Source: Halocafeteria seosinensis
Lineage: Eukaryota
Assembly (NCBI GenBank): GCA_001687465.1
Contig: LVLI01000165.1
Coordinates: 1-64,000, forward strand
DNA length: 64,000 nucleotides
Direction of reading: 5' to 3'
A program made the position numbers and the translations under genes. How positions within the stretch are numbered: position 1 is the stretch's first letter; each line of letters starts with the position of its first letter. Below are positions 3,839 through 29,839 of this stretch, piece after piece. The notes under the pieces were generated by a model. That model did not search any database, was not told the origin of the DNA, and saw nothing but the letters and a program-made list of their open reading frames with translations.

Positions 3839-6800
3839 ATGAACCATTATCTCATCTTTCTTTCGTCGGTTTTAGCACTGCTCTCAGTAGCCTTTCCTAG
3901 AGGGCATGCGAAAGCGGAGGAAGTCACAGAATGCAATGTGGTGAATCAAACATTAGTGATTCTACCGGAGGAGAGTTGCAAACTCAACGTGTCGGCCATT
4001 CCTTACCTGGATGATTTGACCGTTGACGGGATGTTGACTCTCTCCGGAAATGAGACAGATACTTTGACTGTTGGCCAAATGAAATTAACGGGGGTGTTGG
4101 AGAACAGTGGTAAGTGACACTGGATCTAACTATCAATCTTCTATCGAATCAACAGAGTAATTCATCTGGTTCGCAGACATGATGAATCCTAGGTCGCTTA
4201 AAACCACGGGCATTGAAATCAGATTACTATCGTGGTATCAGGAATGCAACGTCACAACCATGGAACGTGAAAGAATGAAAGTGAATGGAGATGTGTCGGG
4301 AGAGTTCGATCTGAAAATATTCGGAAGCACTTCCTTATCGGTGGCGGAACGCACACTCATCCGTGGAAACTCCATAGAGGCTTCCGCTACAAGCCAAGTA
4401 AACCTTAGGACCTCGGTGTCAATTACGTTACAGGGAATGTTTGAGTTGATTGAAAACAGTCTACTTGATATTTCTGGAACTGCCTCTATTGAAGCTCTTG
4501 ACTTCGTCCTTGGCGCAACAGCGGCGGTGTACGGAGTTGGGAGCGGATACGCTCCATGCCAGGGCCCAGGAAGCCCTATGCGTGTTAACGCTACCGACAG
4601 GAACAACATGGGCGGATCTCATGCCGGCATCGGAAGCGCAGCTGGTGTTGATCCAGTTGCTGGTCAGAAAATAACTTATGGAAGTTTTGCCTTCCCTTCT
4701 GTCCCTGGAAGTGGAGGATGTCCAACAGCAATGGGTGGCTCCGGCGGAGCAAGCTTACAGGTGAACGTATCGGGTCTTAGTGAAATCGACGGAGAGATTA
4801 ATCTGAGTGGTGACGATGCCAGCAGTAGTGGAGGTGGCGGTGGTTCCGGAGGAAGTTTCCTTCTTCAAACTGGTGTATTACAGTCGCTTCTCGGAACAGT
4901 AAAAACAAATGGTGGCAATGCTGGTAAATACGGGTTCCATGGAGGTGGAGGTGGACGTATTGCCGTTTTATGCAAAAACAGCCCTCCCAGCGGAAGCAGA
5001 AACCAACGCTTTTCCAATATTGAGTCGGTTGGAGGAGTTGTGGAAGCCAATTCTAAGAGGTCGGCCCCTGGTACCATTTATATAGACTGTGGACCCGTGC
5101 ATTCAGAGGAACTTACCGTGGACAACGCTGTTGCTGAGGAAACAGTGGTTCAGCAGGGCGACACATTCATTGATGCAGATGATAGCAAGTTCCTCATGAT
5201 TAAGCGGCTTCGCCTTGTACGTGGTGGCAGGCTGAGGATCAGCAGGGTGGACCAAGCCCCGAGCAACAACAAAAACCATACTGTGTTCATCTCTCACTTG
5301 GAGGGAGATCCATCTGGCCTTCTGTTTGTTGATAGGTCGCAGAGAGTAATTATTTCGAACTCCTCAGAAGCAACTCCGGTGACAGAGCAAGACAATGAAG
5401 TCGGTCTTGTTCTAGGTGTAGGCTTGAGTGTATCGCCAAAGAGCACGCTTGAGGTTAAACCAGAGCAGCACATCCTCGTAAGCAGGGCAGAAATTGACAT
5501 TCGTGGGCGTGCGGAAGGTTTCAAGAGCTTGAGTCTTTCATTGGGTGCGAAATTTACTTCATATTCTGTGGAAAAAATGTCTCGCTTCCATTTTGATTAC
5601 CTGGACGTCCAAGATTCCTCTTGCTTCGAGGCTTCTTCCCTGCAGGAGATTCAACTCGGTGGTGACAGAATGCACCTATGGGACGATGCTTCAGTTAAGC
5701 TGTGTAGTGAATATGTTAATGTTGAGTTTGAAGAGGAGGTTAGCATGACTGATAAATCTGCCTTCGAAGTCCAGTATATGGATGGCGCCTCACCTTCAGA
5801 AGGACAAGATGAACTGACCATGGACATCACGTCTGTACTTTTATCTGGAGAGAGTAAAATAGCTCTAAAGAACGCCGAGAATGTATCTATGCATGTTGAT
5901 TCGCTAGAGATCACAGGTAGCTCTGAACTGACTGTCTCCGCCGCTCAAAACATTCATATGCTAGGTAATCGTCTTATCACATTTGACGATGTCGTCGTTG
6001 ATCTCCACGGCGAACACACAGTCTTATCCTTTGCAACTAGCATCAGTTTAAATGGAAGATCTTCTCTGCCACTCAAAGGGTACAACTATATAACGACGGA
6101 TTCCCTGTATACAGGCAAGCATACAAGACTGAATGGCCAAGGCGGAGGTCATGCAGGCTGCGAAGGTCCGGGTAGCGCTCGAACTGCTACAGAACTGGAT
6201 GGGAATGTCGGGGGGTCTCATGGTGGGATAGGGATTTCCGGTAGGGTAGGAAATACTATAAGTCGGGCGTTATCATACGGTGACATCTTCCTTCCGCGAT
6301 GGTTGGGAAGCGGGGGCTGTTCCTATAATCCTGATCATGAAGGAGGCTCAGGCGGGGCATCCCTAGAGCTAGTGGTGAATCGGACAACGGAACTGCACGG
6401 AGAAATTGATCTACGTGGCGGGGATGCAAGTGTCGAGTAAGTCTCGTGTAACACTGTCTGGTGCTATGCAGCGTTATGGCACTTGTTACAATGTTGGTCT
6501 TCCATTGCAGCGCCGGCGGCGGCTCAGGAGGAAGTTTCCTCCTGAGTACGGACCATCTCTGGGCTCTAACTGGACCTGTGAAAGTGAGTGGAGGCCGCGC
6601 AGGTTGCTCGTATTCACAGTGTGGTGGTGGAGGTGGAGGCCGTGCGGCAATCCACTGTGGTTATTATGGTGCGCTGAACTCCAGTAGAGTCGACAACATC
6701 GAAATGAACCCGTTGTTGGTTCAAGCATATGGAGGGTACGATGACGTCCAAAATAAGCGTTCTGGTGCCGGAACGGTATTTATTGACTGTCTGTCAGGCC

Positions 6801-9800
6801 CTATTAATACTCTACTTGTGGACAACGGTGAGCCGCATCATGGTGATGGCTGGCAGGGAGCGACGGTGTTGCCCCAGAGAAGCCATCCCTTGTTCTTCGA
6901 TCGCCTAAGACTCATTAGGTTTGGTCGGTTGCTGTGGGCCGGTAACCAGACTATGTCCGTCACAATGCTTGAAGGAGACTCAACCGGTTACTTACGCGTT
7001 GGATCTCAGCAGGCGCTGTATATGGATGGTGCAGCAGATATAAATATGGATACGGTGGGTACCGACGCTCCAAATATTGTATGGCCTGCAATTAACTCCG
7101 CCTTCAGGGTGGCTGTGGACATCGATGTACCACAACAGGCACGATTGCGTTTACAAGGAGTCGGCTCGTTGCATCTGCTAAACGCGGCAGTGAACATTTA
7201 CGGACGGGTTGAGGGGATCGAATCGGTAAATGCTTCCATGCATTCGTCCATAACGTTCAATGGGCCAGTGAGTGATGAGGCTTCACAGGCAAAGGATGAA
7301 ACTGTGTTGCACTTCGCTAGAATAGAACTTTCAGGCGGCAGCATTGCGACTATACGCGACGCCAGCAGTGTTTCTCTATATGTTGACGCAATTGAGGCAA
7401 ACGATGATTCAGAATTGGTCATATCAAATGCCAACTATATCAATTTGAACGGAACCACGCTTCACATGAACGACGAAGCCGTCCTCCAGCTCGGGAGCAA
7501 ACACAATGATCTCTCGTTCTGCGATAGCATACAACTACACGGAAAAGCTTCCCTCTTGCTCTCTGGGTACACAAGTTTGTCCACCCACAGTCTCCTAACT
7601 GGTGAACAAACAATACTTGACGGGGTTGGTGCAGGGCATAATCCATGTGATGGACCTGGAACTGGAGTGGCGAAATCAGTGGATGGCGTTATGGGAGGGT
7701 CCCATGGCGGAGTTGGAACCCATGCTAGTTTCGGTAGTGATGTTGCTCGATCATTAACACATGGTGATGTTTTCTACCCGCGGAATTTAGGAAGTGGAGG
7801 CTGTGACGGAGACGACGGTGGAAAGGGTGGGGCTGCGCTCGAACTCATTGTGGACGAGACATGTGAGTTGCACGGAAGAATTGATCTACGTGGGGCAAAT
7901 GGACGTAGCAAGTAAGTGTTTTCGGGAGATGAGCATAAATACTGTTCTTCGTTTAATGAATGTGAAAATGTGCCTTCTTGCAGTGGTGGCGGTGGAGCAG
8001 GTGGCAGTTTTTTGTTACGGACAAGTCGCCTAGTTGCACTTGCAAACGACATTCTAGTAAACGGAGGTGAATCAGGGCACTATATCGGTGGCGGAGGTGG
8101 TGGACGTGCGGCCATACATTGCGTCTCATTCGGTGGTGAAAATTCTAGTGAAGCAGAAACGGAAGCGAAAGCAGTTCAACAAGTGAAAGCGCACGGGGGG
8201 TGGGATGAAGACGACAGAACCGAGCGTTCCGGTGCAGGGACTGTGTATTTTGATTGTGGTTCGCATATTTCCAATGTAATTGTAGTTGATAACGGAGAGC
8301 CATTAGATGATCGCGATACGCACTCCTGGAGAGGGGCGACAGTTTTGATGTCTGATACGATTCCGTTGGATTTTGAACTCGTGAGAATAACCCGATATGG
8401 CCGAGTAATGTGGGGAGGTTCTTCTAGGAGCGGCATCAGTAACCACAGTTTGTTTGCTTCAACCCTTGTAGGCGACTCAACTGGTCACTTGGCGATTGAT
8501 GACGACCAAGGACTATACTTGCAAACTTCCAAAAGAAGCCACCCCACTGCTGGTATTGGGAGCGAAAACACTCCAGCTCTATTTGGTAATGTGGCCGTAT
8601 TGGCAGTCGACGTTGAGGTTTCTTCCCGAGGACTCCTTCGTTTAGGACGCAGTGACTCGTTGAGACTGGCCGGGGTCACGGTCGACGTTCATGGACGTCT
8701 GGAAAATATTCAGTCGATCAGTGCCTCGATGGACTCGGCGTTACTTCTACACCCACCGTGGAAATTGGAGGACCCCACGGAGCGGATCAAAGAGATAGCT
8801 CTAAACTTGACACATTTGCATTTGTTTGATGGCAGTAGACTGGAGATACTAGACGCTGCCTCTGTACAACTACATCTGGAAAGCGTGGAACTCTACGGAC
8901 AGTCCGAAATGAATATATTGAACTCCCAGAATATTTCGGTGGAAGGAACCACGATGCAAATGTTCGATCAGACAAAAATGGAGCTTAATGGGTTCAATAC
9001 ATCTCTTTCGTTTCAAAGCAACATTAACCTAAAGGACAAATCGAAAATACTAGTTACTGGATACACATCCGTCTCCTCAGTGCAGCTATTCACTGGTGAA
9101 GGAACGACGCTTGACGGTGCAGGTGGAGGTCATCGTCCATGCGAAGGTCCTGGGAGTGTCGAAACGATAAAAACCTCCGACGGGCACTTTCAGAGCAACA
9201 TCGGGGGATCTCACGGTGGGATTGGAACCAATACTGAGGTTACCGGTGACGTTGCTCGTTCGCTAACGTACGGTGATGTGTTTTATCCACGGTCTTTAGG
9301 AAGCGGGGGTTGCCACTACAACCAGGGTGGGAGTGGTGGAGCTGCCCTGGAACTCATTGTGAACAGTACATGCGAATTACACGGAAGGATTGATCTGAGT
9401 GGGGCAGATGGCTACAGGTAAGTATTTTCTGGGTTTGGTGTGAACAAAATAGACGTTCATGTTAGTTAAGGTCTTCTGTGCTGCAGCGACGGTGGTGGAG
9501 CTGGTGGAAGTCTCCTTCTACAGGCTGATCGAATAGTCGCTCTAACCAACCGCATCTTAGTAAACGGCGGTCGAGTGAACCGCTACGACGGATTTGGTGG
9601 AGGAGGTGGTGGAAGGGTGGCAATACACTGTGTTTCCTTTGGTCCTGAAAATTCTAGTGATACCGACGTTGATGTGCAACATATTGAGGCCTACGGGGGC
9701 TGGGACGAGCACAGAGACGAGCGATCCGGTGCAGGGACTGTGTATGTAGATTGTGGTCTGCCTGGCTCCGATATTCTTATTGTGGAGAACGGTGAAACAT

Positions 9801-12800
9801 CAGTGGACCGTGATACCAGTGAGTGGCGAGGAACCACCGTGTTGGTGTCTGAGAGAAATCCATTGTATGTTGATCGACTTCGAATCGGACGGAATGCTCG
9901 GCTCCAATGGGCAGGTCCCAAAAGCAACACTGGCAATTACAGTTTGTTTGTTTCTATACTCGAAGGTGATTCCACGGGGTATTTGCGCGTGCTTGATAAC
10001 CAGGAGATGCATGTGCAAACCGCTCAGATGAGCAAACGTGATACTGCTAGCGGCCATGGAGATGGATCGTTTGACAATGTTAATGTTCTCTCTGTAAGCA
10101 TTTATATTGCTCCTATTGGTCTCCTTCGGATAAGTGGGAGTGGCTCGTTGAAATTAGTGGGCGTCACGGTCAATGTTCATGGATGGCTGGGAGGTGTTCA
10201 CTCGATTAATGCGTCAATGCAGTCTTCGTTCTTATTACGGCCACATTCGATATTCGAAGATCCTACGGAGCAGTTGGAGGATATCTCCATGAATTTTACC
10301 CGTTTGCAGCTCTTCGATGAGAGTAGAATGGAGCTCTTTGAGTCTACTTTCGTAAGGTTACACACGGATGTTTTAGAAATTCATGGTGACTCTAAATTGG
10401 TGATATCTGATACCCGTCGGATAGTTCTTGAAGGTAATAGCCTAAAAATGTCCGGTGCCTCCAGCATGCAACTCAATGGACGTAGGGCATGTTTGTATTT
10501 TGGAAGTGACGTTGGCCTACAGGATGAGTCCGAACTACGGTTCACTGGTCGTATATTTCTAGAATCTCCTCAACTTTTTACCGGTAAGGAAACAACGTTT
10601 GACGGTGTCGGAGGAGGCCATAGCTCATGCAAAGGGCCTGGAAGTTATTTTCGGCTTCCTGCTCACCGTCACTACATGGGGGGGTCTCATGGCGGCGTTG
10701 GATCGTCTAATGAGGTTAGCGCTGACGTCGCTCGCTCATTGACATACGGGGATGTTTTCTATCCACTTACTCTAGGAAGTGGAGGGTGTGACGAAAGACA
10801 TGGGACCAGTGGAGGCAGTGGTGGGGCTTCATTGGAACTAGTTGTAAACGATACATGTGAGTTACACGGACAGATCGATCTGAGCGGTACCGATGGTGAA
10901 TACCGGTACGTTTCCCCCTTCCATTGGTAAGTACACAGATCCAGAGCTCTCTCCCCCTTCAATACGATACATATATATTCCTTTTGTGTCTGGTTTTGCA
11001 GGGGCGGTGGTGGAGGCGCAGGTGGCAGTTTCCTTTTACAAACCAATCGTCTGGTCTCTTTTACTAGTGAGGTGCTTGTTAGTGGCGGCCGAGCGGCCGA
11101 CCATAATGTTAATGGTGGAGGGGGTGGGAGGATTGCCCTGCATTGTGTTTCATTTGGGGGTGAAAATTCTAGTAAAGCAAACACTGAAGCGCTGAACATT
11201 CAACATGTGAAAGCGTATGGGGGGTGGGATGAAGATAAACACCAACGCTCCGGCGCAGGCACCGTGTATATTGATTGTGGGTCTCACGTCTCTAATACTC
11301 TTATCATTGACAACGGCGAGGCACTAGCCCATCATGATCCGCGTATGTGGCAAGGAACGACAGTCTTTCTCTCCGAAGTGGACCCAGTGTATATTGACAC
11401 CCTCCAAATCACCAATCATGGTAACTTGAGATGGAGCGCAAGTTCTGTTAATGAGACAGCTATTCTTTCTGTAGAACGGTTAGTTGGCGATTCCTCTGGG
11501 CTGCTGAGCATTGGCAACTGGCAACAAACCGAGATACAGGCGGCCTCCGTGATAGAAGCCATGGACGGATGTAGTGGCACAAACAATATACGGGGTAGAG
11601 ATTCATTCGATGTCGGTGTGGACTTAGAGGTGCCCGCAGAAGGCAGAGTAACGGTTCCAAAAAATGAACATCTCTTCCTTTGGGGCGCCAGAGCCCAAAT
11701 ATTTGGCAGCCTCAGTGGAATGAAGAGTCTGGACTTGAAGTGCCGTGCCAAATACACGTTTAAGCCTCCTCTGTTATCTTCTGCTCAGCTTGAATATGAG
11801 CGCATTCAAGTAGAGGACACCTCGGAGCTGGTTTTCTCGGTCTCCGACAGTTTACAGTTAAATTTAACCAGTCTCCTCCTCTGGGACAATGCCAAAGTTG
11901 AATTCGTGTCACGGTATTCGGATGTCAGCGTAAGCGAACGCAGCCGGTTATATAACCACTCCGAACTAATAGTATCCGGTGAAGAGCGATTCTCCACCCA
12001 AAGTCTCTTTATCGACACGGCAGCCAGAATAAATGGTGTTGGTAAAGGATTTGGCCCTTGCTTAGGCCCTGGAAGTGCCGCGAACGGTGGGATGTCTTCG
12101 AGCGGTATTGGGGGCTCTCATGGGGGTATCGGAAGCTCAGAAGAACTTGGTAGAGAGAAAAGCGAATTGCTTACGTATGGAAGTATGTTCTATCCGGTAT
12201 CGGCAGGAAGTGGTGGCTGCAATGATCGCGGTGGGAAGGGTGGAAGTGGGTTGGAGCTCCTGGTATGGGAGGAAGCACAGATCGAAGGTGATATTGACGT
12301 CAGCGGGGGACGCGGGGAAACTGAGCGGTAAGTAAAATATCAAGTCCACAGTAGCCATTTTGTAAGCAGGACATTTTAATTTTCAACGCTTTTGCTTATG
12401 ATCATAAATTTGCAGCTATGGCGGAGGTGCTGGGGGGAGCATTACCATCAACGTGAGCAAGCTCGTCTCTCTCAACGGAATCCTTCGAGCGAATGGTGGG
12501 GATGGGCGAAACTACTATTGTGACGACTGTAATGGAGGTGGTGGAGGTCGAATAGCCGTTCTTTGCAAAATGTTTGAACATCATGAGAACACGTCACATT
12601 CCCCGAAGTTCGATGCCGCCGAAGCGCTAGGTGGCCACGGGTACCGTAATTACCTATCCGGAGCTGGAACTATATACATGTCTTGTGGGGCACAACACTT
12701 TGATAGTGTTTTCATCGATAACGGGGAAACATCAGCTCCTGGTTGGAATGAAGACTTCGGTGCAACTTACTTAGTTTCCAAAACGAGGAAAATTTCAGTC

Positions 12801-15800
12801 GACTCTTTGTTTGTTGTAGGCGGTGCTGAAGTACGGTGGGTATCATCATCAACCAACAACAGCACTCTTGACATGCATGAACTTCTTGGCGACTCTACTG
12901 GGAGAATTATTGTTGACAACCACCAAATCGCTAAGGTTGATGAATCTTCGCGAGTTGAGCGAGGTAGCTGGCGTCCATTTTCTCCGGATTCTTTTGTCTT
13001 GGGCGTTGGAATTGACATCTCGCACGGAGGGGTTCTTGAGTTGCCAAACGAACAAGTTGTCGAAATTTCAGACTCTCGTTTAGATCTTGGAGGCACAGTG
13101 TTAGGGATGAAGAGCCTTAATTTATCCAAGGACGCAAAATTTACTTTGAAGCCTCCAGCCACGCGCCTCCTACGTCTTCAGGTGAGTATACTGGATCTTT
13201 CAGGAAATTCCCAATTCGAAATAGATGTTGCAGATGGCATAGATCTCCAAGGGGGTTCGTTACTTTTATGGGATAACGCACGGGCGCATTTTCGCTCTTG
13301 GGAAAATAACCTCACGTTTACGCAGGAAATCGCATTGCACGATGAGTCGTCTATCTCAGTTGCGGGGCGCTCCCTCTTCCGAAGCGAGCACTTCTTCGTT
13401 GATAACAGGGCAGCAATAGACGGAAAAGGAAAGGGTTATTCAGCATGTACAGGCCCAGGTAGCCCCCACGAAAGAGGAATAGGAGGGTCTCATGGGGGAT
13501 TTGGAACGTGGGACGAGAACCGCTATGACAGTGAAAATGAGGCTGCGCGTTATATATATGGAGACATGTTTTTTCCGCAGCAACCCGGTAGTGGAGGCTG
13601 CCCTGTACGTGGTGGCGGCTCTGGTGGATCGCATATTCATGTAACCGCGCATCAATCAGCTGATATCCTTGGAGACATTGACTGCTCCGGCGGGGATGCT
13701 GATTTCTTCTACGAAACGAACAAGTAAGTTTTTCTTCGCGATGCAGTGACTGTCCGTTATAAAATCGCATTTGAACTTCCAACAGATACGGAGGAGGAGC
13801 TGGAGGTAGTGTTCTACTTGAAACGGCACGCCTTATACGAGTTGAGGGAAGTGTTAAGGCTGATGGTGGGGACGGCGATGGGTGCGAGAGAGAAAGAGTA
13901 TATGAAGACGATTTTACACATAACGAATTTTCCTACAATCGGGACTACCAGGAATATGAGTGCCAAGGAGGAGGGGCCGGCAGAATCGCCGTTCACTGTG
14001 ATGCTCTCGGGCCGAAGGGAGCCAATAAAAGCACACCAACCGTTCTAGAACACACTTTTGCGCGTGGTGGTCACAGTGAAGCTTACGACAGGTCAGGAGC
14101 AGGAACTGTATATCTGGATATTGGTGAAAAATATGCCGAAGTACTAAGTGTGGATAATGAGTTCAATCACGACAGCCCGATAACCTGGTTGCTGACGGAG
14201 AATCGCACACTACGCTTGGACACGCTGCGAATAGCTGGCTCATCTCAGGTTCGCTGGGCTTCCCATCCTTGGCAGGCTCATTGGGAGAATACCACCCTTG
14301 CATTGGAACACCTAGATGGCGAAGGGGATAGTAAACTGTTTGTGGGTAAAGAACAGATCCTAGACATGCGTCTTCTGTCTTGCTCAATCGAAACACCAAT
14401 GGAAGGAAGTCAACGCACTCTGAGAGCCAACGTAGAAGTGGAAGCTGGAGGTGTCTTAGGGATTCCCGAAAACGAAGCCTTGCAGGTCGACGACGCTACT
14501 CTAACCATACACGGTAAACTGTTTGGGTCCAATAGTGTGGCCCTCTGGCGAGACGGTTCTGTGAGACTCCATCCTACAGCGCTGACTTCCAGATTCGACT
14601 GGCAGTTGATTAAACTCATGGATACATCTAGTCTCCATATTGATACTGAGGGTGACATATCGCTGGTGGGAAATGAAATTATTCTTAAGGATGAAGCTAG
14701 CTTGCATTTGGAGAGCACTGAAAACCTACATCTCTGGTACAAAGACCTGCTGCTGCAACGCGAAGCAAAGATCAACTTTGATAGTTACCAGGCCAATCTC
14801 TCACTCACGAACTCAGTAAAACTGTATGACAGATCCACGTTGCTTACTCCGAAGTTAATGCATTTGGAAGCTGGACAGTTTTTCATCGGCTCATTGGCGG
14901 AAATAGATGGCCGAGGAAAAGGATATAGTCCTTGCAAAGGACCTGGAAATTCTCGTGACGCTAACGTACACGATGTTGGAATTGGAGGATCCCATGGTGG
15001 CATTGGAACCTGGAGGGACGTAGGTGATGAAATAGGTCAACAATTGACGTATGGTAATCCCTTCTATCCAAGAATGCCGGGAAGCGGGGCATGCTATGGT
15101 GGCTCAGGCGGCTCAAGCGTGCATATAGTAGTTTTCAATGACTGTCAGGTTCTCGGAACCATCGATGTGAGTGGAATTGACGGAGAGTATCATCATTCAA
15201 GGTATGTGATAGAGCAAACATCACTATACATTGCCTTTGAAGGTCACCAGTATTCTTGTACACGGATGCAGAGATGGCGGTGGAGCCGGGGGGAGTTTCC
15301 TGCTTGAAACAACGTGTATGCACACTCTTACCGGCAATATCAAAGCAAACGGTGGAGAAGGAAGAGGGGAGGATTGCTCCTCTTCAGCTGATTGTCAAGG
15401 TGGTGGAGGTGGTAGGATTGCAATCCATTGTGATAGTGGATGCCAAGGTAACAGCACAGGTGAAGTTTCACTGGATGGAGTAGAAGCTCATGGAGGATCA
15501 CCTGAAGATCGTTTTCGACATGGGATGTCGGGTGCCGGAACGGTATATGTTAATTGCAGGTTTCATCGATTAGACATGTTGGTTATGGACAATAGCGCTG
15601 ATGGAGTTAATTATCGGGGATTCACGTACTTATCTCTTGACCCGTCGCGTCCGTTTCCCAATACACTTAGGATCCAGGGCATAGCAAAGGTAAAGACCCG
15701 CTTCGAGGATACCGGCTCTCCAATAAACTCGACTCTACGGATAAACAGTTTGCAAGGAGACTACACTGGGAAGCTAGTAATCAGCGAGGGACAGGTAGTC

Positions 15801-18800
15801 AAAGTGGAGTCATCGTCAACAGCTCTGGACTCCTCCATACCGTCGCCTGCAGGGTCCTTTATATTACCTGTAAGTATGACGATAGGAATAGGCGGCACTC
15901 TCCGTCTGCCCCCGTTGACAAACCTACTGATCTCTGATGTCACCTTGGATCTGAGTGGGTCATTGGAGGGGGTAGTTGCCTTCAATCTCACACGAGAGGG
16001 TTCCTTTGTGCTGAAGCCGCCTTCTCCTGATGTGCATTTACAAATGGATCTAATAGAGCTTCAGGATAAAGCTACTTTTGATGTAGAGGTGAGCAACACA
16101 ATATTGATCCAAGGCAAATCATTCCACGCAAGCGATCAAGCTAGAGTCTATTTTGATACGTTTAACAAAGGCGAAACTAACGTAACTTTCGACGACGAGA
16201 TCCATGTAGATGGTGACGCAGAATTCCGCATTGAAGGACAGAGTGCAGTAGTGAATGCAGCAAACTTACATCTACGTAGTTATGCCATCATGGAGCTAGA
16301 TAACGTGGAGAGTGCTATACTCACTAACAGCACTACAATTGAAGGTGACTCAAAACTTGTAATCCGTGGAGACAACTTCTATTCAGATTGGAGCCATTTC
16401 AGCATCGAAGGAAATGCAGAAACACGGCTTGAGAGCTGGCAGACAAATATAACAAGTAGAGAGACTATTTTCAAAGACAGTTCTTCGGTCTCTATGAATG
16501 GGCGCGTGAAACTCGTAACAGAGCGCTTGTATGTTGGCGAGTCTGTGACAGTCGACGGCAAGGGTCATGGTTACAGTTACTGTCAAGGTCCGTTCGATCC
16601 GGAATCTGCCAGCAGTGTTGTCATGCCTGGATTTGGAGGGACACATGGTGGGATGGGGACCTGGAGAAACGACATAAGTGAAGATGTCGGATTAGCGCTG
16701 ACATACGGAGACTTGTTTTACCCTACAACCCCCGGAGCAGGAGGTTGTGGATGGTGGTACGGTGGTAGTGGTGGTGCTGCTTTGCACGTTGTCACCAACG
16801 ATGCTCGAATATCAGGCTCAATAGATCTCAGTGGCGCAGATGCGGACCCACCCACAACGGATAGTGATAGATTTGGTGGTGGCGCGGGTGGGAGCTTCTT
16901 GCTAGAGAGTGCACATCTTCAGTCATTCACTGCAAACGTCCGAGTTAATGGTGGCGACGGTCAAGGTTGTCATTACGACAACTATCAGGACGACGACTGT
17001 CAAGGCGGTGGAGGGGGGAGAATTGCACTCTACTGTGACGTTTTCGGTTTTGACATAGAACAGCCGAATCATACGTATCCTTCATCAATTGATGGTGATT
17101 GGTTTGAGGCATACGGCGGGAGGGCAGACGATTGGAGCAAACTGTCGGGAGCAGGAACTGTGTTTTTAGCTTGTGAGAATGCAGAGCGCAGAACTTTGTT
17201 GCTGGATAACCGTGAATATGAACCAAAGGGCATTACTTACATTGTTGCTGGGCGTGGTCAATTTTCTTTAGAACATTTAAGGGTTATTAACGGTGCAAAT
17301 GTTCGTTGGACTCCTCAATGCTGTGCTTCTACCGTAAATATCACAACTCTGGATCTAGGATATCTAGAGGGGGATTCAAGCGGCAAAGTTACTGTAACTA
17401 ACGCACAAGAATGGATGGTCCACTACTACTCAGTTAAACTTGAAGACTCGAGAAGCACTTGCAGCTCAGTCGTAGATAACACATTTGCATTAGGGGTTAA
17501 TGTAAAGATAGCAAAAGGAGGAGTTCTTAGTTTCCCTGACGTGAGCTCGCTTCCCATACTGGACACGGAACTTGAATTGGAAGGAGCTCTAGAGGGCATT
17601 CAAATCCTTAATATGTCGAACAGTGGGAGATTCGTCGTTACCGACGCGATCTTGTTTGAAATGAGCGTCATAGATGTATCGTGTCACGCATCGTTCGAGG
17701 TACATGTTTCCGGAAAGCAAGCTGAAACTGGTCTGAAGGGTCAGCAGTTACGTCTACGAGATGAAGGAATCATCGAATTCAACAGCGGTCAGGTGAAAGC
17801 GACATTTTCGGAAGCTATTTCTCTCTATGATCAATCGGCTATGCTTGTGCACAATGAAGTAGTGCTAAGTAGTAGCGACTTCTTTCTAGGTCAAAGAGCG
17901 ATCGTTAAAGGCAAGGGGCAGGGGTATCGCGCTTGCACTGGTCCAGGAAGTGATCCAGATCACGAACACGGGATAGGTGGATCCCACGCAGGTATAGGAA
18001 GTTGGCATCGGGATCTAGATTACGGGTTGTCCGTAGCGTACGGTGACGCGTTTCACCCCAGTTCACCCGGGAGTGGAGGTTGTTCTGAGTCCGCGGCAGA
18101 TGGTTCGGGAGGCGCCAGTTTACAGATTTATTGCCCCCAGTTCGCCAACATCTTGGGCGACATTAATATGGATGGCGAGGATGCAGAACCCTATTCACCC
18201 TCTACAGAACATCGGTAAGTTGCAACGCCAGTAGTTGCGTCCTCGTGAGATGATATTGTAGTGTGCGTTCATGTTATACAGGTTTGGCGGAGGAGCCGGT
18301 GGTAGTTTTCTTATAAAAGCAGGGAATCTGCAAAGGCTCGAAGGAAGAATATCTGCTTCTGGAGGAAAAGGCAAAGGATGTGCGGGCTCGAAGTGGGACG
18401 ATCCCGCTTCGGATGAGTGTGAAGGCGGTGGGGGCGGCCGGATCGCTATATACTGCGATGAATTCGGTTCTCCCCATTCTAACTCTTCCCTTGATGTTCC
18501 TGACGTCAGCAAAGTCAAGACGTATGGCGGCCCCGCAGCAGACCGGCAAAAATCCTCAGGTGCGGGAACTGTGTATATTGATTGCGGACAGCAGTACGTT
18601 AAAACACTAGTTATCGAGGATGAGAAAGGAAGCCATAGCCGCTGGAAGGGCAAGACGTTCTTATTTGACAAGTCCAACTACACTCATATTGAAAGATTGC
18701 GCATCGTGAGCGGAGGAAAGTTGTTCTGGATGGCCGAACCTACTTCCTCCGATATGGGGCAAACCCACAGGATGGTAAACATATCTCGACTAGAGGGAGA

Positions 18801-21800
18801 TCTCACTGGTCAGCTAGGGATCGGTAAGGGAGTGACTTCGGTGGTGCATCACTCCCCAGTGATAGCTACTGTAGATATCCCCAATTACTGTGTGAGCAAC
18901 AACAGCCTCACGCTAAATGTTGATCTCCAGGTGCGTCCGCAGGGGATGTTCAGCCTGTCTGCACCACACAATGTCAAGCTTGTTGGTGTCAACGTCGAAG
19001 TCAATGGTGGCTTCAACGGAGTCCAAAGCCTTTGCATGTCTTCGGAATCGAGTTTCAAAGCATATAATACACCAACACAATCCAGCGACTGGATTAATAT
19101 GCTGTCGCTAACTGTCGCTGAACGCAGTTTGTTCGAAGTTAAAGAGATCGAACACTTGATGGTAGAAGTAGACATGATCAAGATTCACGGAGACAGCACC
19201 TTAAGGCTTTGGGCTTCTGAGTCTCTGACTCTTGTTAGCAGGACATTGAGCATAGAAGATGAATCTTTCCTGCAGTGTCGCTCAGATGGAATCATCAAGC
19301 TGCAAGGCAGTACTTGGGATACCGAGTACGCCCAAGTGGATATTGACGCAACTCAAACACTCGTACATTTTGAAGACCACGTCGTATTGCTTGACAACAG
19401 CGATGTTAGTGTTCATGGAAAGACAAAAGTAAATACGACTTACTTCTACATGGGACAAACAGTGGACCTAGATGGAAAGGGGCATGGGTACGCAGCTTGC
19501 GAGGGCCCCGGAACCACTTCCGACGTCGTAGAGTCATTCCGAGTCGGAGGCTCTCATGGAGGTATTGGCGTCTCAAGAGATGTATCGGCGGCTGCTGGCA
19601 GAAAGCTGACGTACGACTCCGTAGTCTATCCAACTCTTCCTGGCAGCGGTGGGTGTTCGCATTCCTTTGATAGTGGAGCAGGTGGTGCAGCCGTAGAACT
19701 CGAAGTACGGGGACTTACTGAGCTGGATGGGAAAATAGATGTAAGTGGGGAGGATGGGCACCACTCCGAAAGGTACGTACCTAATAGTTTCTTTGGAGTC
19801 TTATCAACTCTGAACTTAACTTGGGTTTTTCGTCGCTGCAGTGGTGGATCCGGAGGGAGTTTTGCTTTGTTCACTACGAAACTTGTTTCTTTCAAGGGCG
19901 AAGTCAAGGCCAATGGTGGAAATGCAAATGGAGACGATCATGAAGATAATCGGTGCCATGGGGAGAGTTGTCCAGGAGGTGGTGGTGGTAGGATCGCCGT
20001 GCATGTTGCTGTTTTCGCAATCAACGACAGTATGTGCCTCAAAAGCGGTGGGATCGAATGCCAAGGTGGAAAAGCGGCAGACGATATGGCAAGGTCTGGG
20101 GCTGGAACAGTTTATCTACAGTGTGGCAGCGAACTCAGCAGGCTGAGCGTGGACAACATTGAAAGTACGGGAACTGATGATATGGGAATGACTTACCTTT
20201 CGAGCAACGTAGACCAGGTCTCTTTCTCGAGCATCCGCGTTGTGCGAGGAGGCAGACTATATGTTGGTGTTGGTTCTGCACCGCCGACCAGCGGGAAAGG
20301 CTCAATCATTACAGCTTCGGTTATTGAAGGAGATGCACATGGTGAGCTCGCGGTAGATGTTAATGTTTCAGTGCTTGTTCAGCGCTCGACCGTATTAGAA
20401 TACCAAGGAGAGGAAAGTCATGGATTTATACCAGTTTCCACATCCTCGAACGGGACTCTCCCTCTGGGGATTAATCTTGACATCCTCCAAGGCGGAACCT
20501 TCGAATTATCTGCTCCGTGGCACATTTCTCTCCAGAGTACCAGAATACGGCTAAGAGGTACACTGAAAGGAGTAGATAGTTTGAACTTATCTAGGGGTGC
20601 CATTTTCAGGGCAATAAACCCTGAGCCACGTTCGAATCAATGGCGAAGTTTGCAATCGTTGCGACTGACAGAGGATTCCGAGTTTCGCGTACAAAATATA
20701 GACAAGTTGCAAATGGATATCAAACGAATTTCTCTGAAGGACAAAAGCTCATTCGATATAACGGGCACGACATCTGCAACCTTACGAATTGAAAGCATGT
20801 GCTTGTCTGGAACAGCGAGTTTTCATGGCTGGGTGAGAAGGAATCTCCGTATTGATGCAACCAGCCTGGTTTTGAGGGAAGACTCCGGGGCTACGTTCGG
20901 CGGGCAAGTGAACAATATAAGCCTCACTAACGGTATTGAATTGCGTTTTCGGGCATACGTCGCTATCCATGGTCAAACGAAAATTATTGCAAGGGACTTG
21001 ACCATGGAAAAAGATGTTCGGATCAACGGTGTTGGACACGGGTTTGAGGAAGCCAAAGGCCCTGGAAGTCCCAAATTAATTGCATCCGAGAATAGTGCGT
21101 GGAAAGGAGGCTCTCATGGTGGAATAGGAAGTTGGAGGACACATGATGTGTCGCTCCTCGCTGAAACTGTAACCTACGACGATCCGAGGAAACCAACTCT
21201 TCCAGGCAGTGGCGGTAGCGGTTCCTTCCGTGGCGCAGGTGGCTCATCTCTACAGTTGGTTATTTCAGAAACGGCTAATGTTAATGGAGATATCGACTTA
21301 AGCGGAGAAGGAACACAGGATTCCGCAAGGTATGTAACTAGTTTTTCGTTGGTTGTCTTCCTCTTAGGTAAACAAGACAAGTTGCAATGAACCACAGGCA
21401 TGGCGCTGGGGCAGGAGGAAGCTTCTTAGTGGAGTCGACCCGAATTGAAGCATTAGGAGCAAGCATCAAAGTAGACGGAGGGGAAGCAGATGACTGTAGT
21501 TCTGTTTCTGATAAGAGAGACTGTGAAGGAGGCGGTGGAGGACGAATTGCGGTGACATGCAGCTCTTTTGGCCCAAATCAGTTGAACCTCAGCAGCTTGC
21601 ACACACTCGATATTTCCAAGTTGTCAGCGCATGGGGGCCTCAGTGCTGATGAAACAACGAGATCTGGAGCGGGAACTATTTATATTGACTGCAGTGAAAA
21701 GTACCATGATGCACTCATAGTGGATGGGGGCGACGATGCAAACCCGGAGAGTGGGGTAACGTTTTTGTTAAGTCAGGGCGACTCTGCAATTGAGTATCGG

Positions 21801-24800
21801 AAACTCGAAATACTGCAGTACGCCAAGATAAATTTTGGCACTGAGGACGGTAGTTCGCCAGAATTGGCAGTCACTGTTACAAACCTTGAGGGTGACATGA
21901 CGGGTCACCTGCAAATTAGAAAGCAGCAAACTGTTGTTGTCACTGCTTCCTCGAATAACGAGCACGGAGGCGGCTCGTTCATGTTTCGTACCAATGTGGA
22001 CGTAGATCCTCAAGGAGTGTTTTCTATCTCCCCAACAACGAATGTAACAGTGCCTGGTGCTACTGTGCGCATTCGTGGACGATTGGAAGGGGTAGACAGT
22101 TTACTCGTAACTGACAAAGGTGATCTGAGTGTGGATCAAGACGAGTCTCCCTCGACGTCCTCGGCATTTTTTGGAGACCTCTCCTCTGTGCAACTATTCT
22201 CCGAGTCGGAGTTTCGGCTGCAAAATTTCGACAACTTAACTATTCAGTGCCCCTTGGTGAGGCTTGCGGAGAGTTCAAAACTCTTCGTCTACTCTGAAGT
22301 CAGTTACAGCCTTGATCTCCAATCTTTATACGTTTCGGATGGATCGCGACTTAATGCGGACGCGGGAAAGGGGTATCTTTTTGCCAAGGAAGTATTCGTT
22401 AAAGATTCTTCAGTACTGAGTCTGGAGGGGACCCAGAGGCAGGATTTTCAGACCCACAGTCTGCAACTTTTCCACACTAGTCACGTCCAACTCGGCGCCA
22501 AGACTTACATCACGATAGTTTCCTCCGCCGAGATATTGGATAGTGCCAGCATGGTGGTCGAAGGGTGCGAGGAGCTGAACAGTCCGGAGGTGATTCTAGG
22601 AGAGGATGCGACGCTGGAGGCACCAAACTGCAACGTTTCCTCTAACGTTTTCCGGAAGGAACCCGATGAAGACGTTATAGCCCCGTCTGCCTCCCCCAGT
22701 GGAACCTCGTCACCATCAGTCTCGTCCACGCCATCATCTTCCGAGAGTGTGACACCTTCACCCCGACCTAGTGAAACGGCGACAGTGTCCTCCACAGCTG
22801 TGAGCACTCCGTCTCCTACATCGACTGGTACTGCCAGCCCCAAGTCTACTCCCAGTAGGACCCCATGGAGACAGCAACTGTATACCCAGTCGACGAAATC
22901 AAGGATATCCGCTTGCAGTCTTAGCAACCAGTACAACTGCATGACAGCGGAGTTCGATGTCTCCATTGCCTCGGTGACGCAGCAGAGTAACGTTACTGCG
23001 GGAAGCATGCAACTTCGCGCCCAGACTATCACTGGCGAGCAGCCAAGCATCGTCTCCAAGTGTGACTCAGTGAATGAAGATCAAGCAGGAATTACCTTTT
23101 ATGGGTGTGCTCCAGAATTCGAAGGCTCCTCCCTTGGAGTTGGACCACCGTTTCAGCTAGTACCAACTATCATATCAAACTCAAGTTGTGCGTCGTGGAC
23201 CGGCCGCAAAGCATGCAGGCTATACTCGTATGATATTGCTATTAAATACCTGCACGATATCAATGAAATGTTGCAAACTCAGAATACGATACTCGAAGGC
23301 ACCGGTGGCTCGAGGCGGTTGCAAGAGGGTTTACTTAACAAGGATAATTCTTCCAGAATTTTAGTGCCTACTAGAGTGGAGATTGCTCTCGATCATGAGG
23401 TGATAACGACACCGAAATTCACTTTGGCGATGCCATTGAGCAACCGGCAGTCTTCGTCGTCGGATGCTAATCGTTTGTTAGATATCACCCCGCAAACTCT
23501 AAACGTAAATATTGGTAGGAGCAGAGGAAGCAATCGACTCGTTAATCGAAGCGTATCCGTTACGTTGGAACCAGATACACATGCTGTTTGGAATATTTCG
23601 AACCAGGCAGCGGCGTATATCTCAATCCCGGAAGTACCTTCTCGGAGCTCTTCATCCAGTATTACCGTAGTGGACGAAGCAATCTCCATAAGGGTCGCAG
23701 ACGTCCCGCTTGGCTCTACCCATGCAACTATTGATGTAACTTTTTTTTCAGAGTCAGATCGGCAAGTCATTAAAAGAAGCCATATAAATGTCTTCCTAGC
23801 ACTGAGACAAGCAAAGCTGGAGCTAGCTATTTCCACTGTTCAACTTTCTCGAAGCCTTTCAGAAGGCCCCTCATACCGCGAAACGAGGATAATAAATGAA
23901 GGCGGCCATAATGCACTCTGGAACGCGACTATCTTCACGGATGAGGGGGCCCAAATCAACGGCAGTGTACTTGGCTGGATGTCAATTCCCACTGCTTCGG
24001 GAAGAATCGAAGCAGATGGAGCGTCTGATATTTCGCTAGTGTTTACCCCAAAAGGAGCACCGAGTGCAGGAGTATTTGCAGCCTGGGTTCTGATTGTGAC
24101 TAACGCCTGGCGAGGAGAAACGGAAGCGCCGCAAAGTGCCCCCCAGACATTTGAAATGCCTAACCCACCAGTGCACTTTTGGGTCCGGGTGGAATTAACA
24201 GTTACATCCATTTACGTCTGTAAGCAGTTTAGCCCTAATACCGCCCTGCAGCCCCTTGATTCTAGAGACTTGTCTCTCAGTGTAGTGAATACCGAATCTT
24301 ACGCGCTTAACGTGGGTTTATCAGATTTTCGTTTGACACGATTCTCGGAAGAAGGAAACGAAACTCAGCGTACTAGAAGTGTAAGCATGGTGAGTCGAGC
24401 AGTAGATCGCAGGATCAATGTCACTAACTGGCTGTCTGTCTCCCCTGCTCAACTGAAACTAAAGCAAGGATCGTCAAGCAGTTTCACAATTCGTCTGAGC
24501 TATCCCTCCAGCGTACTAACCCTGGAAACGAGCCGCGGTGTTACCCATAAAGTTGAGGCTGGACCGTTCGCATTAAACTTCGTGTTGGACGTTTTCTTCG
24601 AAGGTGAACGTATCGGAGAGGCATCATCATCAGTGAGCGAGAGTTTACGGTTTCAGAATGTTCCGGGGCTTGCATTTGCGTCTAATTCCTTCCTTTCGGC
24701 AGATCGCACGAATGCTACTGCCGGAGAATCAGTCGTCGTCCAGGTGAATCTTCGAGATCAATTTGATAGGGGGCCTGCGATAGCGAGGTTTCGTGGGATC

Positions 24801-27230
24801 AATGTTGGAGGCTTCAGAAGTTTGGAGACTAATGCACAACCTGAACCGCAGTTGCGACTCGGATTGTTTGCAAGAAACGCAACGCGTGCCGCAATCCCTG
24901 TTGACGCCCAGCTTCCAAATCGTTTCCGAAGTGGTCAGAGTGTAACATCTTTTGAATTACAAGTGTCGCTGCGGGGTACCGGCCAGTTCGTGTTAGATGC
25001 TCATATTGGAAATGAAGCTATCCAGGGAAGCCCGCTTGTGGTATCCTCCACACCAAATGATTGCCCTCGCGAAAACGAAGTAGCAGAAGAGTCAGGACGA
25101 GTATGTGTGTGCGAACGGGGATTTAATCGTGCAAATTCCTCATGTACACCATGTCCAGAAGGTACTTTCAAGAGTGAACCATCGAACAATGGAAAATGTC
25201 GTCCGTGTCCTGTTGGATTCTTCTCCAACGAAGGATGGGAGAAATGCGAGCGTTGCCCTGAACAAGGGGTTACCTGTGTAGACGGGCGCTTAAGGATTCA
25301 GGCAGGTTATTGGTGCGACGCATGTAGCTACGAGGGAAATGGCGCCGCTTCGGAGTTGCTAACCCAGCTTGCGGAAGGTAGCGTTACCTTCCATTCATGT
25401 TCCCCTTCGGGAGCGTGTATTGTAACAGATGATTCAAGAGAGACGAGATGCTCAGCAGGCTATACAGGGCCAGTGTGCAGCCAATGTACCCAGGGGTATT
25501 CTAAGGCTTCCGATGGATCATGTGCACGTTGTAAGGCTATTGAACTCGATGGGTTTCTCTTGGCACTCTTCGCCACTGGAGTAGTGCTTGTAATCGTAGT
25601 TTTTGCCTATCAGTCCAAGCAGGACTCCGAAGAGGAAAAGAGGACCGTGGAACGCAATAACAATGATGATGTATTGAGCGACTCGGAACCGTTTGAAAAA
25701 CCGGAGAAAGAAGCCATTTATGAATTCCAATCGCAGCATGCTAAGGTCTTGGCTGCAAAACTGGATATGAAGACTTTGCAGCACACCATTGTATTACTTG
25801 TGGACTACCTCCAGATTTGCGCTATTCTCAATGGAACCAAAATCAACCCGTTTAGAGGATCTGCCAGTTGGTTTAGTGTCATGACCACTTCCTCTACGAT
25901 GAATCCCACCAGAGCAGGTCCTTTTCGGTGTGTTGCTGATACGTCGCCCGTCGAGACTAATCTTGCGACAATGTCAACTCCAGTGGTGCTGACATTCCTC
26001 GTTATTGTTCTACAGGCATTAGTCGAATGCACCAGTCCAAAATGGAGGCATACCTTTTCCCTTCGCACATACATACGAAATTCGACAAGATCGGCGATAC
26101 TGTTGCTCAACTTGCTGCATATGTCTGTCACAGATGCCTCTTTTCGTAGTTTTGAAACTTATCCTCTTGAAATCAGAGATACGCCGAGGGCGGCAATAGA
26201 TCTCAGTGTACGGACGGATAGTCGTCGCTACCGGACATTGTGGTTGGCGGCGCTCGTTACGCTAGCTGTCTTTGTCTTCGGCTATCCCCTTCTAGTCGCT
26301 GTATACTATGTTTTATGGCACCGTCAACTCCGCACCCCAGACCAGGTAATGCAATTTGTTAAAGTTACAGGGGGTTATCGGGTACAGCTGCATGGGTTTC
26401 TTTGGGAGATGATAGCAATTGCGAGAAAAGTGTTGCTGCTAGTTATTGCTGTATGGATCGAGAATCCTCTCTGGCAATTCGCCTTTTGCACCAGCTTGCT
26501 TATGTTCTTCTATTTGATCATCATGACGATACAGCCCTATCGTAAGACCGTACTCACTAATCTACAAGGAACAATGACATTCGTAGCATCCCTGAACTGC
26601 TGTCTAGGGATTCTACTCGAGACTGGAGGTGGAGTTCTTGAAGGATCAGTCACGTTATTTACTCGCAATACGTTGGAGAGAGCAGTCCTTTTAGTTCAAG
26701 TCGCATTCTTCCTTATTTGCACATTGGTATTCCTATATCTCTCTCCGCAAGCAGTATTATCAGTAAAGAGGGCGTTGAAGCAACTCTGGCAGGGAGAAGG
26801 TGCGATAGCGCGCTCCGCTCGAGTAAGAGGTACTGGCGCGCGAACGTCACAGGCTCGACAGGTATCTCAGAAACCTACGCGTACCCGGCGAAGGCTCCGT
26901 AAGAAATCCAAGCGGAACAAGGACCTTTCAGATGCACCGAAAGCAAAGATTGACAATCCATTGTTGAAAGTTACACCCGCATATCGCTCCAACACCCCTG
27001 GGTCGAAGGAGGCACTAACTGAAACCAAAGCATCATATGGAGCAGCGACGAACCCTTTGATAAGTATATCCTCTGAAAAGTGTGAATCTGAGAAGACTGA
27101 TCGAAACCCAAAAGGCGCTGCTACGGGTGCCCCATTTACTTCCATTGACCGAAGAGTTTACGTCCCGCAAATGGTTCGTCAGAGGAAAGCTCGGCGGCGG
27201 CTCCAACGGCGAAGACAGGGTGATCCATAA
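3839..27230 (+). CDS. Giant (~7,536 aa) cell-surface receptor/adhesin-like protein: signal peptide, 12 Gly-rich repeat modules, S/T/P stalk, Ig/filamin-like domains, Cys-rich (TNFR/ephrin-receptor-like) repeats, multi-pass TM domain
   Basis: ATG 3839 begins MNHYLIFLSSVLALLSVAFPRGHAKA (signal peptide). Introns: 4110-4176, 6437-6510, 7912-7983, 9418-9486, 10927-11001, 12328-12415, 13724-13785, 15202-15271, 18215-18281, 19773-19841, 21330-21397. All are GT-AG, 62-88 bp and frame-restoring. Spliced length is 22,611 nt = 7,537 codons. The last exon has PSASPSGTSSPS, a filamin-like ...IQGSPLVV, CTPCPEGTF/CRPCPVGFF/GYTGPVCSQC and about 7-9 hydrophobic helices. Confidence 0.88.
4530..21720 (+). repeat. 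Array of 12 diverged tandem coding modules (~1.3-1.6 kb each) inside the giant gene
   Basis: Twelve copies of the ordered motif set G[HYF]xxCxGPG - GG[ST]H[GA]GxG - YGxxxxPxxxGSGGC - GGxGG - IDxSG - GGGAGGS - xGG - GGGGGRIA - SGAGT[VI]Y, separated by beta-rich spacers. Confidence 0.92.
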
Positions 27231-29284: not shown

Positions 29285-29839
29285 TGGGGCATAATATCTG
29301 AATATCCCGTTCGCGCCCTGGAGAGCCAGCCCTTTTCTGTCGTTGCTGTATCAAAAATATTGTATCTACGCGTACGGCCGAAACCAACCTCTATGACCAG
29401 ATATAACAGGTGCAGTTTGTGGTATTGGCAATACTATCGTATTATCGTACCCAAAGACAGGGAACGGTGCGTGGTTGGTTGCGGCGCCTGATGAAACGGC
29501 AAGTACCTACATTTCCAAGCGATTGAGATCTCGTCCTTTTCGCTCACAACTCAGAAATAATGTATTGAGCATAGCAAGTAAGGCAGTATTAGGGGCATGT
29601 TCTTTTTGAAAAGTGGGTAGATGTGATTAGTGGTACCAGTGCACTGCGGAGTTGAATTCTCACAGGGACCTACTACTGGTACCAAAATGGTACCAATACT
29701 ATGATTGTACCTTTTCCTTCCCATGACATCTAAGGATATTGTTCATTAATTTCCTAAGCGAGAGACCAAACGGTATAGCATAGACTTCAAACCGCAATGT
29801 TTCATGTGCACGGAAGTCGTCAAGTTGGGCAAGTGTGGA

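What the first reader, a model, noticed from the sequence alone, without database searches (positions are those of the whole stretch)
6437..21397. Ten phase-2 introns at the same position in each repeat: every internal repeat exon is an in-frame cassette
Seen: each of the ten introns falls between IDxSG(x)n and GGG[AS]GGS, always in phase 2. The exons between them are 1401, 1434, 1440, 1326, 1308, 1416, 2943, 1491 and 1488 nt, all multiples of 3. Inference: the array grew by duplicating an exon plus its intron. Any exon can be skipped or swapped by splicing or intronic recombination without frameshift, which gives a potential Dscam-like combinatorial system for receptor length and specificity in a protist.
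Basis: partly seen in the sequence, partly recalled or inferred. Interest (0 to 1): 0.85.

Follow-up and report, generated by a model that had tools for sequence, protein, structure and literature searches.

The report
Giant receptor with allelic module number
A giant predicted cell-surface protein gene of a eukaryote (likely a protist) is built of twelve old repeats, ten joined by a tiny same-phase intron; spliced contigs show in-order splicing where they reach, and the DNA data likely hold a second allele with one extra repeat, so the gene likely varies by DNA recombination rather than by Dscam-like splicing.

Summary
In detail: ten GT-AG phase-2 introns (62-88 nt) sit at one homologous spot in the repeat junctions of a predicted 7,536-aa surface protein (signal peptide, 12 glycine-rich/beta-helix repeats, Cys-rich region, about 8 membrane segments). 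Two of the 12 junctions have no intron. The Dscam reading is not supported. Exons are 1.3-2.9 kb, introns are tiny and unalignable, no spare exons or intron-intron pairings were found, and spliced contigs join neighbouring exons in order at introns 8-10. The intron is predicted to cut the conserved glycine-rich domain in two, so an exon is not a domain. New result: in the DNA run, a 1,318-nt stretch (8722-10039) has three-copy depth (170 against 115 in the flanks), and a half-depth contig (58) loops its end back to its start. This likely marks a second haplotype with an extra in-frame 473-aa module, intron included, with breakpoints in exons. The array therefore likely grows and shrinks by in-register unequal exchange between exons, which copies the intron passively. 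Same-phase exon arrays are known in Tetrahymena and brown algae; this is a long-exon variant.

The parts
3839..27230 (+). Whole gene, 12 exons, predicted 7,536-aa surface protein
   Evidence: stop-free spliced frame; last three phase-2 introns supported by spliced contigs
3839..4109 (+). Exon 1 with predicted signal peptide (aa 1-24); followed by a predicted phase-1 intron 4110-4176
4177..6436 (+). Exon 2: partial repeat plus module 1, with an intronless junction near 4830
6437..6510 (+). Intron 1, phase 2, 74 nt
7912..7983 (+). Intron 2, phase 2, 72 nt
8722..10039 (+). Segment S (3' part of exon 4, intron 3, 5' part of exon 5) at three-copy depth; likely tandemly duplicated in a second haplotype with a 170-nt diverged junction, unit 1,488 nt = 473 codons + intron
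   Evidence: depth 170.2 vs 112-115 in flanks; 230-nt loop contig at 57.8 joining 10010-10115 back to 8651-8751
9418..9486 (+). Intron 3, phase 2, 69 nt (inside S)
10927..11001 (+). Intron 4, phase 2, 75 nt; alternative in-frame donor at 10906
12328..12415 (+). Intron 5, phase 2, 88 nt
13724..13785 (+). Intron 6, phase 2, 62 nt
15202..15271 (+). Intron 7, phase 2, 70 nt
15272..18214 (+). Double-module exon (2,943 nt) with an intronless junction near 16865
   Evidence: crossed without a gap by contig 16091-16937 of run X2
18215..18281 (+). Intron 8, phase 2, 67 nt
   Evidence: 8-nt loose end equal to the end of the upstream exon
19773..19841 (+). Intron 9, phase 2, 69 nt
   Evidence: spliced out in an X2 contig
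21330..21397 (+). Intron 10, phase 2, 68 nt
   Evidence: spliced out in the same X2 contig
21398..27230 (+). Last exon: partial module, S/T/P-rich linker, about 750-aa region without a Pfam hit, Cys-rich repeats, about 8 membrane segments, basic tail
   Evidence: Ephrin_rec_like 28.7 bits vs cut-off 23.1; hydropathy; 28% identity over 1,450 columns to P0068

Best explanation
This is a predicted giant multipass surface adhesin or receptor whose 12-repeat ectodomain likely grew, and likely still changes length, by in-register unequal exchange between homologous exon sequences, with the phase-2 intron copied along as a passenger and likely spliced constitutively. Shown: intron positions and phase, old divergence of the modules, in-order splicing at introns 8-10, three-copy depth of 8722-10039 and the half-depth loop contig in exact module register. 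Inferred: that the loop is a tandem extra module on one haplotype (13 repeats against 12); that it is an old module-4/module-3 crossover product whose two flanking copies were recently made identical by conversion, the shorter allele then arising by pop-out; that two junctions lost the intron. Predicted: each repeat is a beta-helix stalk plus a glycine-rich domain that spans the intron; the rod binds a surface ligand (prey, substrate or another cell) and signals or anchors through the Cys-rich and membrane base. The ligand and role are untested.
For: Module identity is 25-52% (protein) and 39-62% (DNA), fourfold sites average 0.29, and the longest exact match is 21 nt. Adjacent modules are more alike than chance (p=0.0009); the window's 12 cores group at SH-aLRT 97 and junctions 1-4 at 100 (quick tree). 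One X2 contig (19225-21662) joins three consecutive exons through introns 9 and 10. Depths in X1 are 111.8, 96.7, 170.2 and 115 along the gene and 57.8 for the loop, ratios 1.93, 1.67, 2.94, 1.99 and 1. The loop's offset of 1,488 nt is the module-3/4 register (102 of 170 identities, against 29-64 at the 29 other offsets tried) and leaves 1,419 coding nt = 473 codons. The loop is module-4-like at its start (19 of 24 diagnostic sites) and module-3-like at its end (7 of 11). The same repeat forms tandem arrays in intron-free open frames (L003, 333-aa period; L005), so it duplicates without introns. A model centred on an intronless junction scores pLDDT 88.1/pTM 0.90, with the glycine-rich region mostly 80-98; the exon-bounded model scores 75.7/0.78, with those halves at 38-76. 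The stalk matches beta-helix adhesins (EtpA Z 17.7, rmsd 4.6, 265 aligned).
Against: The extra module rests on one contig in one DNA run, probably the run the window came from; no long read or second strain was available. A circle, a 50:50 mixed culture or a copy elsewhere could give similar depths. Eleven of the loop's 28 differences are not listed, so a stop cannot be excluded. One listed change replaces a glycine invariant in all 11 modules (position 237 of A1), and 13 of 17 listed changes are at codon positions 1-2 (p=0.036 against the module-3/4 split, p=0.28 against neutral), so the extra module may be decaying. Introns 1-7 are not shown spliced. The two folds differ in module and in alignment depth (11 vs 33 rows), so their comparison is not controlled. 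The tree is the quick one and unrooted.
Confidence: 0.75

Rival explanations
1. Dscam-like or regulated exon skipping yields many receptor isoforms (up to 512 in-frame combinations of nine exons).
For: All nine internal exons are 2-2 symmetric. Brown algal ROCO genes with phase-2 LRR exons do show splice variants (PMC11378527, passages). RNA depth of 1-8 over the array is too low to exclude minor isoforms.
Against: Skipping goes with short exons, long introns and weak sites (PMC6142364, passages); here exons are 1.3-2.9 kb, introns 62-88 nt, and 7 of 10 donors are GTAAGT. No spare or reversed module copies were found in six frames, and 0 of 45 intron pairs pair below z -3. Consecutive exons are joined in order at introns 8-10. 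Skipping would fuse halves of different glycine-rich domains.
Confidence: 0.07
2. The array is an old, fixed exon-duplication product; the loop contig comes from something else (an excised circle, a mixed culture, or a partial copy at another locus).
For: Modules are deeply diverged. The loop is one contig in one run, and the tool filters some records. Paralogous loci exist in the same run.
Against: Depths fit 3:2:1 closely. Among the 7 contigs of X1 laid at 80% likeness, no other branch enters or leaves S. The loop is in exact module register and in frame.
Confidence: 0.15
3. The ten introns were gained independently at a favoured insertion site in each repeat.
For: The introns share no detectable sequence; several have AG or G at the exon edge; two junctions lack an intron.
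Against: All ten have the same phase and aligned position. The likely duplicate carries intron 3 inside the copied unit. Synonymous sites are saturated, which already explains unalignable introns.
Confidence: 0.03

Closest known systems
Tetrahymena 90-bp-exon LRR genes (PMC6564038, passages read)
   Same: Protist repeat genes with tandem exons flanked by phase-2 introns, expanded by proposed unequal crossing over; gene family
   Different: Exons here are 1.3-1.5 kb and of unequal length, introns 62-88 nt, the repeat is a glycine-rich/beta-helix module, and no retroelement link was seen
Brown algal LRR-ROCO and NB-ARC-TPR shuffling genes (PMC3341825, PMC11378527, passages read)
   Same: One repeat per exon, phase 2, repeat number differs between related copies, candidate receptors
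   Different: Those have 72-nt exons, spare and inverted exons in introns, and reported splice variants; none of these was found here, and this is a predicted surface multipass protein rather than a cytosolic NTPase
Arthropod Dscam1 (PMC7430681, passages read)
   Same: Duplicated homologous exons in a surface-receptor gene
   Different: Dscam picks one exon per cluster through docking-selector RNA pairing; here consecutive exons are included together where seen and no such pairing was found
CRMPs of apicomplexans and ciliates (PMC9815656, PMC9670195, passages read) and related protist Cys-rich multipass proteins (P0070 Thecamonas, P0076 Bodo)
   Same: Very large ectodomain, ephrin-receptor-like Cys repeats next to a multipass membrane domain, proposed contact sensors
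   Different: No CRMP was among the 9 hits; 8 segments by hydropathy against 9 (5 in Tetrahymena); ectodomain is a different repeat; no functional data
Unnamed glycine-rich repeat of giant bacterial and eukaryotic proteins (G8-associated; DUF8003 as a weak lead)
   Same: Same motif series and tandem arrangement; Atlas clusters mostly eukaryotic at 0.95-0.96
   Different: Units here are longer (436-535 aa against about 250-440) and fused to a Cys-rich multipass base; G8 reaches its cut-off in only 1 of the 7 repeat-bearing exons scanned

Membership tests
Dscam-type mutually exclusive splicing | Only one exon of a duplicated cluster per mRNA | tested here: not met
   One contig holds the end of module exon 10, all of exon 11 and the start of exon 12 in order; covers introns 9-10 only
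Dscam-type mutually exclusive splicing | Intronic docking site pairing with selector sequences | tested here: not met
   0 of 45 intron pairs below z -3, best -2.7; none of the 25 longest of 54 inverted repeats has both arms in introns. Exon-intron pairing and conservation across species were not tested
Dscam-type mutually exclusive splicing | Many isoforms in transcripts | tested here: inconclusive
   Only low-depth contigs of one sample were available
Symmetric-exon repeat arrays (Tetrahymena LRR, brown algal ROCO/TPR) | One repeat per exon, same intron phase throughout | tested here: met
   10 of 12 junctions, all phase 2
Symmetric-exon repeat arrays (Tetrahymena LRR, brown algal ROCO/TPR) | Repeat number varies between alleles or close copies | tested here: met
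   Likely extra 1,488-nt unit at half depth; one run only
Symmetric-exon repeat arrays (Tetrahymena LRR, brown algal ROCO/TPR) | Short exons of identical length; spare or inverted exons in introns | tested here: not met
   Exons 1,308-2,943 nt; no extra module copies in six frames
CRMP | Cys repeats adjoining the membrane domain | tested here: met
   PF07699 above cut-off; DUF7630, EGF_3 and NCD3G below cut-off
CRMP | Nine-helix membrane core homologous to CRMPs | tested here: inconclusive
   8 segments at hydropathy 1.2 or more; no CRMP among 9 hits of a word-limited search; no direct comparison with a CRMP was run
CRMP | Role in contact-triggered exocytosis | not testable with these tools
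   needs knock-out and localisation
Polyglycine-II bundle domains (gp38, ALK type) | Glycine runs forming a PGII helix bundle | tested here: inconclusive
   Glycine runs have high pLDDT and no helix or strand call, but no such structure was listed; the wide fold search of this model did not run

The most novel reading that the evidence does not exclude
A protist receptor family whose 470-aa modules are actively gained, lost and homogenised between alleles by exon-internal recombination, building chimeric glycine-rich binding heads and swapping whole ectodomains onto a shared Cys-rich multipass base: a heritable DNA-level diversification system for recognising prey, pathogens or kin, possibly topped up by low-level exon skipping.
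Probability: 0.15. Interest if true: 0.72.

Novelty: new variant of a known kind. Interest (0 to 1): 0.42.

Why it matters
It appears to catch, in one genome, the step that multiplies same-position introns: a module-sized duplicate that carries its intron and has breakpoints in exons. That separates 'symmetric exons' from 'alternative splicing', which are often conflated. It also gives a directly testable allelic length polymorphism (likely 12 against 13 modules) in an uncharacterised receptor built from a widespread but unnamed repeat. Repeat-number alleles of surface proteins are in themselves common (recalled: fungal flocculins and adhesins, mucins), so the importance is moderate unless selection on module content is shown.

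Tried and rejected
No RNA holder is listed on record; X2-X4 were treated as RNA only because their contigs lack introns. No exon-skipping joint was listed among 50 contigs of X2-X4 or 41, but contigs drop rare variants, depth was 1-8 and introns 1-7 were not bridged, so this is not evidence of absence. No X2-X4 contig covered the loop junction. No whole genome is held, so paralogues are known only from short matches. Intron-intron similarity: best z 3.1 of 45 pairs, mean -0.05, rejected as chance. Foldseek found no match at E 0.001 or better for either model; sequence searches of solved structures gave three weak hits (E 0.024-0.6) and none. The wide fold search of the junction model never ran, and the profile search of cluster representatives had not returned, so the family's range and the polyglycine reading stay open. 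Alignments A2 and A3 placed the first 30 residues of the 5' halves on the preceding, similar strand; this was left as is. The convergent neighbour (27671-29350, minus) is not similar to the membrane base (E 0.68). The tree used 39 of 158 homologue cores, from a hand-picked list of 16 proteins, and the careful search did not finish. Literature searches (listings only) showed no paper describing this repeat or gene; most subscription papers are outside the library. Earlier-findings look-ups by place and by sequence were empty.
Full report
Observation. With a predicted phase-1 intron at 4110-4176 they join into one stop-free frame of 7,536 codons from 3839 to 27230. Eight split codons lie three residues before the GG[AS]GGS anchor, one four and one one residue before it; chance placement is negligible (about 1e-21 under a naive model). 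There are 12 junctions, and two (near 4830 and 16865) have no intron. Intron 4 has a second in-frame donor at 10906.

The protein. It has a predicted signal peptide, 11 complete modules of 436-535 aa with partial ones at both ends, an S/T/P-rich linker, about 750 residues with no Pfam hit, Cys-rich repeats (PF07699 above cut-off), eight hydrophobic segments and a basic tail. P0068 shares the whole base (28% over 1,450 columns) under a different N-terminus without these repeats, so the base carries interchangeable heads. Other hits to the base include Thecamonas and Bodo proteins (9 hits among 7,593 candidates). This architecture resembles CRMPs, which are proposed contact sensors (PMC9815656, PMC9670195; passages read), but membership was not shown. 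The repeat is widespread: 66 hits among 7,985 candidates, several named as bacterial, nine metagenome loci, some with intron-free tandem arrays, and mostly eukaryotic Atlas clusters at 0.95-0.96 (the recognition score was below the tool's usual level). An earlier AI note (e1-9537589) describes what looks like the same module in an invertebrate; it is a lead only.

Exon is not domain. The alignment with metagenome homologues shows the conserved glycine-rich motif series running straight across the intron site. A model of one exon's product has pLDDT 75.7 and pTM 0.78, with the two glycine-rich halves at 38-76. A model centred on the intronless junction has 88.1 and 0.90, with 19 of 22 ten-residue blocks in that region at 80 or more. 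The comparison is not controlled for module or alignment depth, but it suggests that each exon encodes the second half of one glycine-rich domain, a stalk, and the first half of the next. The stalk matches right-handed beta-helix adhesins (EtpA Z 17.7, HMW1 16.9, pertactin 15.4; a shared fold shows no function). A polyglycine-II bundle for the glycine-rich part is a guess from the motifs (background: bioRxiv 10.1101/2023.11.25.568672, passages read); two searches listed no such match.

Age and growth. Modules are 25-52% identical in protein and 39-62% in DNA; fourfold sites average 0.29; the longest exact match is 21 nt; introns do not align. Neighbours are more alike than shuffled order (p=0.0009), and the window's 12 cores form one side of a branch against 39 selected homologue cores (SH-aLRT 97; junctions 1-4 at 100; quick tree). 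This supports expansion within this lineage by tandem duplication. Loss of the intron at two junctions is the simplest reading but was not shown.

Splicing. Runs X2-X4 (one sample, kind not on record) give intron-free contigs. One X2 contig joins three consecutive exons through introns 9 and 10, an 8-nt loose end supports intron 8, and another contig crosses the intronless junction. Dscam1 relies on docking-selector pairing to pick one exon per cluster (PMC7430681, passages read); here 0 of 45 intron pairs pair unusually and no spare module copies lie in the window. Across 65 eukaryotes, skipping goes with short exons, longer introns and weak sites (PMC6142364, passages read), the reverse of this gene (781 intron nt in 23.4 kb). 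The data are too thin to exclude minor isoforms.

DNA-level variation, the new result. In DNA-like run X1 the gene is covered by contigs at depth 111.8 (to 7437), 96.7 (7436-8751), 170.2 (8722-10039) and 115 (from 10010). A 230-nt contig at depth 57.8 runs from 10010-10115 back to 8651-8751. The ratios are about 2:3:2 with the loop at 1. The simplest path is one haplotype as in the window and one with segment S twice, separated by 170 new bases. The unit is 1,488 nt, exactly the module-3/4 register, and holds a copy of intron 3 plus 473 codons, so the frame is kept. Both ends lie in exons. The 170 bases are module-4-like at the start and module-3-like at the end, but of the 17 listed differences (of 28) 12 match neither module (compared by eye). 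Near-identical S copies beside a junction about 20% diverged suggest an old crossover duplicate, recent conversion between the copies, and pop-out to the shorter allele; that order is inference. One change hits a glycine invariant in the 11 modules, and 13 of 17 fall at codon positions 1-2, which fits relaxed or diversifying selection. Limits: one contig, one run that is probably the window's source, no long reads; a circle or mixed culture is not excluded. Two letters differ between the spliced runs and the window (14064, 18610), consistent with heterozygosity but from another sample.

Mechanism. Any in-register crossover between homologous modules keeps the frame and copies whatever lies between, intron included. 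Equal phase is therefore a by-product of growth and needs no splicing function. The likely product is a long beta-helix rod studded with glycine-rich domains on a multipass base, acting as adhesin or contact receptor; ligand and role are untested.

Comparison and verdict. Phase-2 exon arrays in repeat genes are documented in Tetrahymena (90-bp LRR exons, PMC6564038) and brown algae (72-nt LRR exons with shuffling and splice variants, PMC3341825, PMC11378527; passages read in each, supplements not consulted). This gene works like those at the DNA level but has exons 15-20 times longer, tiny introns, no spare exons, and an intron inside the conserved domain. It is not a Dscam-type system on the features tested. 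Searches (listings only) showed no description of this repeat. Verdict: real feature, duplication origin supported, splicing-based diversification unlikely (0.07), allelic module-number variation likely; new variant of a known kind; interest 0.42.

Noticed in passing
window 21633-21662: An X2 contig matches these 30 nt and is preceded by 255 or more unrelated letters that are not in the window; there is no AG acceptor there and X1, X3 and X4 show no such branch. Probably a template-switch chimera; unexplained.
   Followed up: partly
run X1 contigs matching window 6500-6535, 11009-11040, 13482-13507, 15155-15174, 21106-21128: At least three other contigs (55.8, 5.7 and 17.5 kb) carry the same motifs, so this is a gene family. 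One has a 1,629-nt motif period; one match includes the acceptor end of intron 1 with an in-frame stop just upstream (likely the same intron); another junction appears to read through without an intron.
   Followed up: partly
window 10906 and 10927: Two in-frame donors for intron 4 differ by seven codons in the variable linker; which is used is unknown.
   Followed up: no
window 7436-8751: The X1 contig here has depth 96.7, below the 112-115 of its flanks, and overlaps the previous contig by only 2 nt; the haplotypes may differ here too.
   Followed up: no
window 27671-29350 (minus): Convergent 559-codon frame for a multipass membrane protein with no Pfam hit and no similarity to the receptor's base.
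   Followed up: partly
window 40281-42170 (plus): PTEN-like phosphatase with C2 and a C-terminal PH domain.
   Followed up: no
window 53574-58484 (plus): 1,636-codon frame with C-terminal adenylate/guanylate cyclase domains; strong AT skew at 54-57 kb.
   Followed up: no
L003:9173-16396 and L005:3500-21796: Intron-free giant frames with near-identical tandem copies of the same glycine-rich module.
   Followed up: partly
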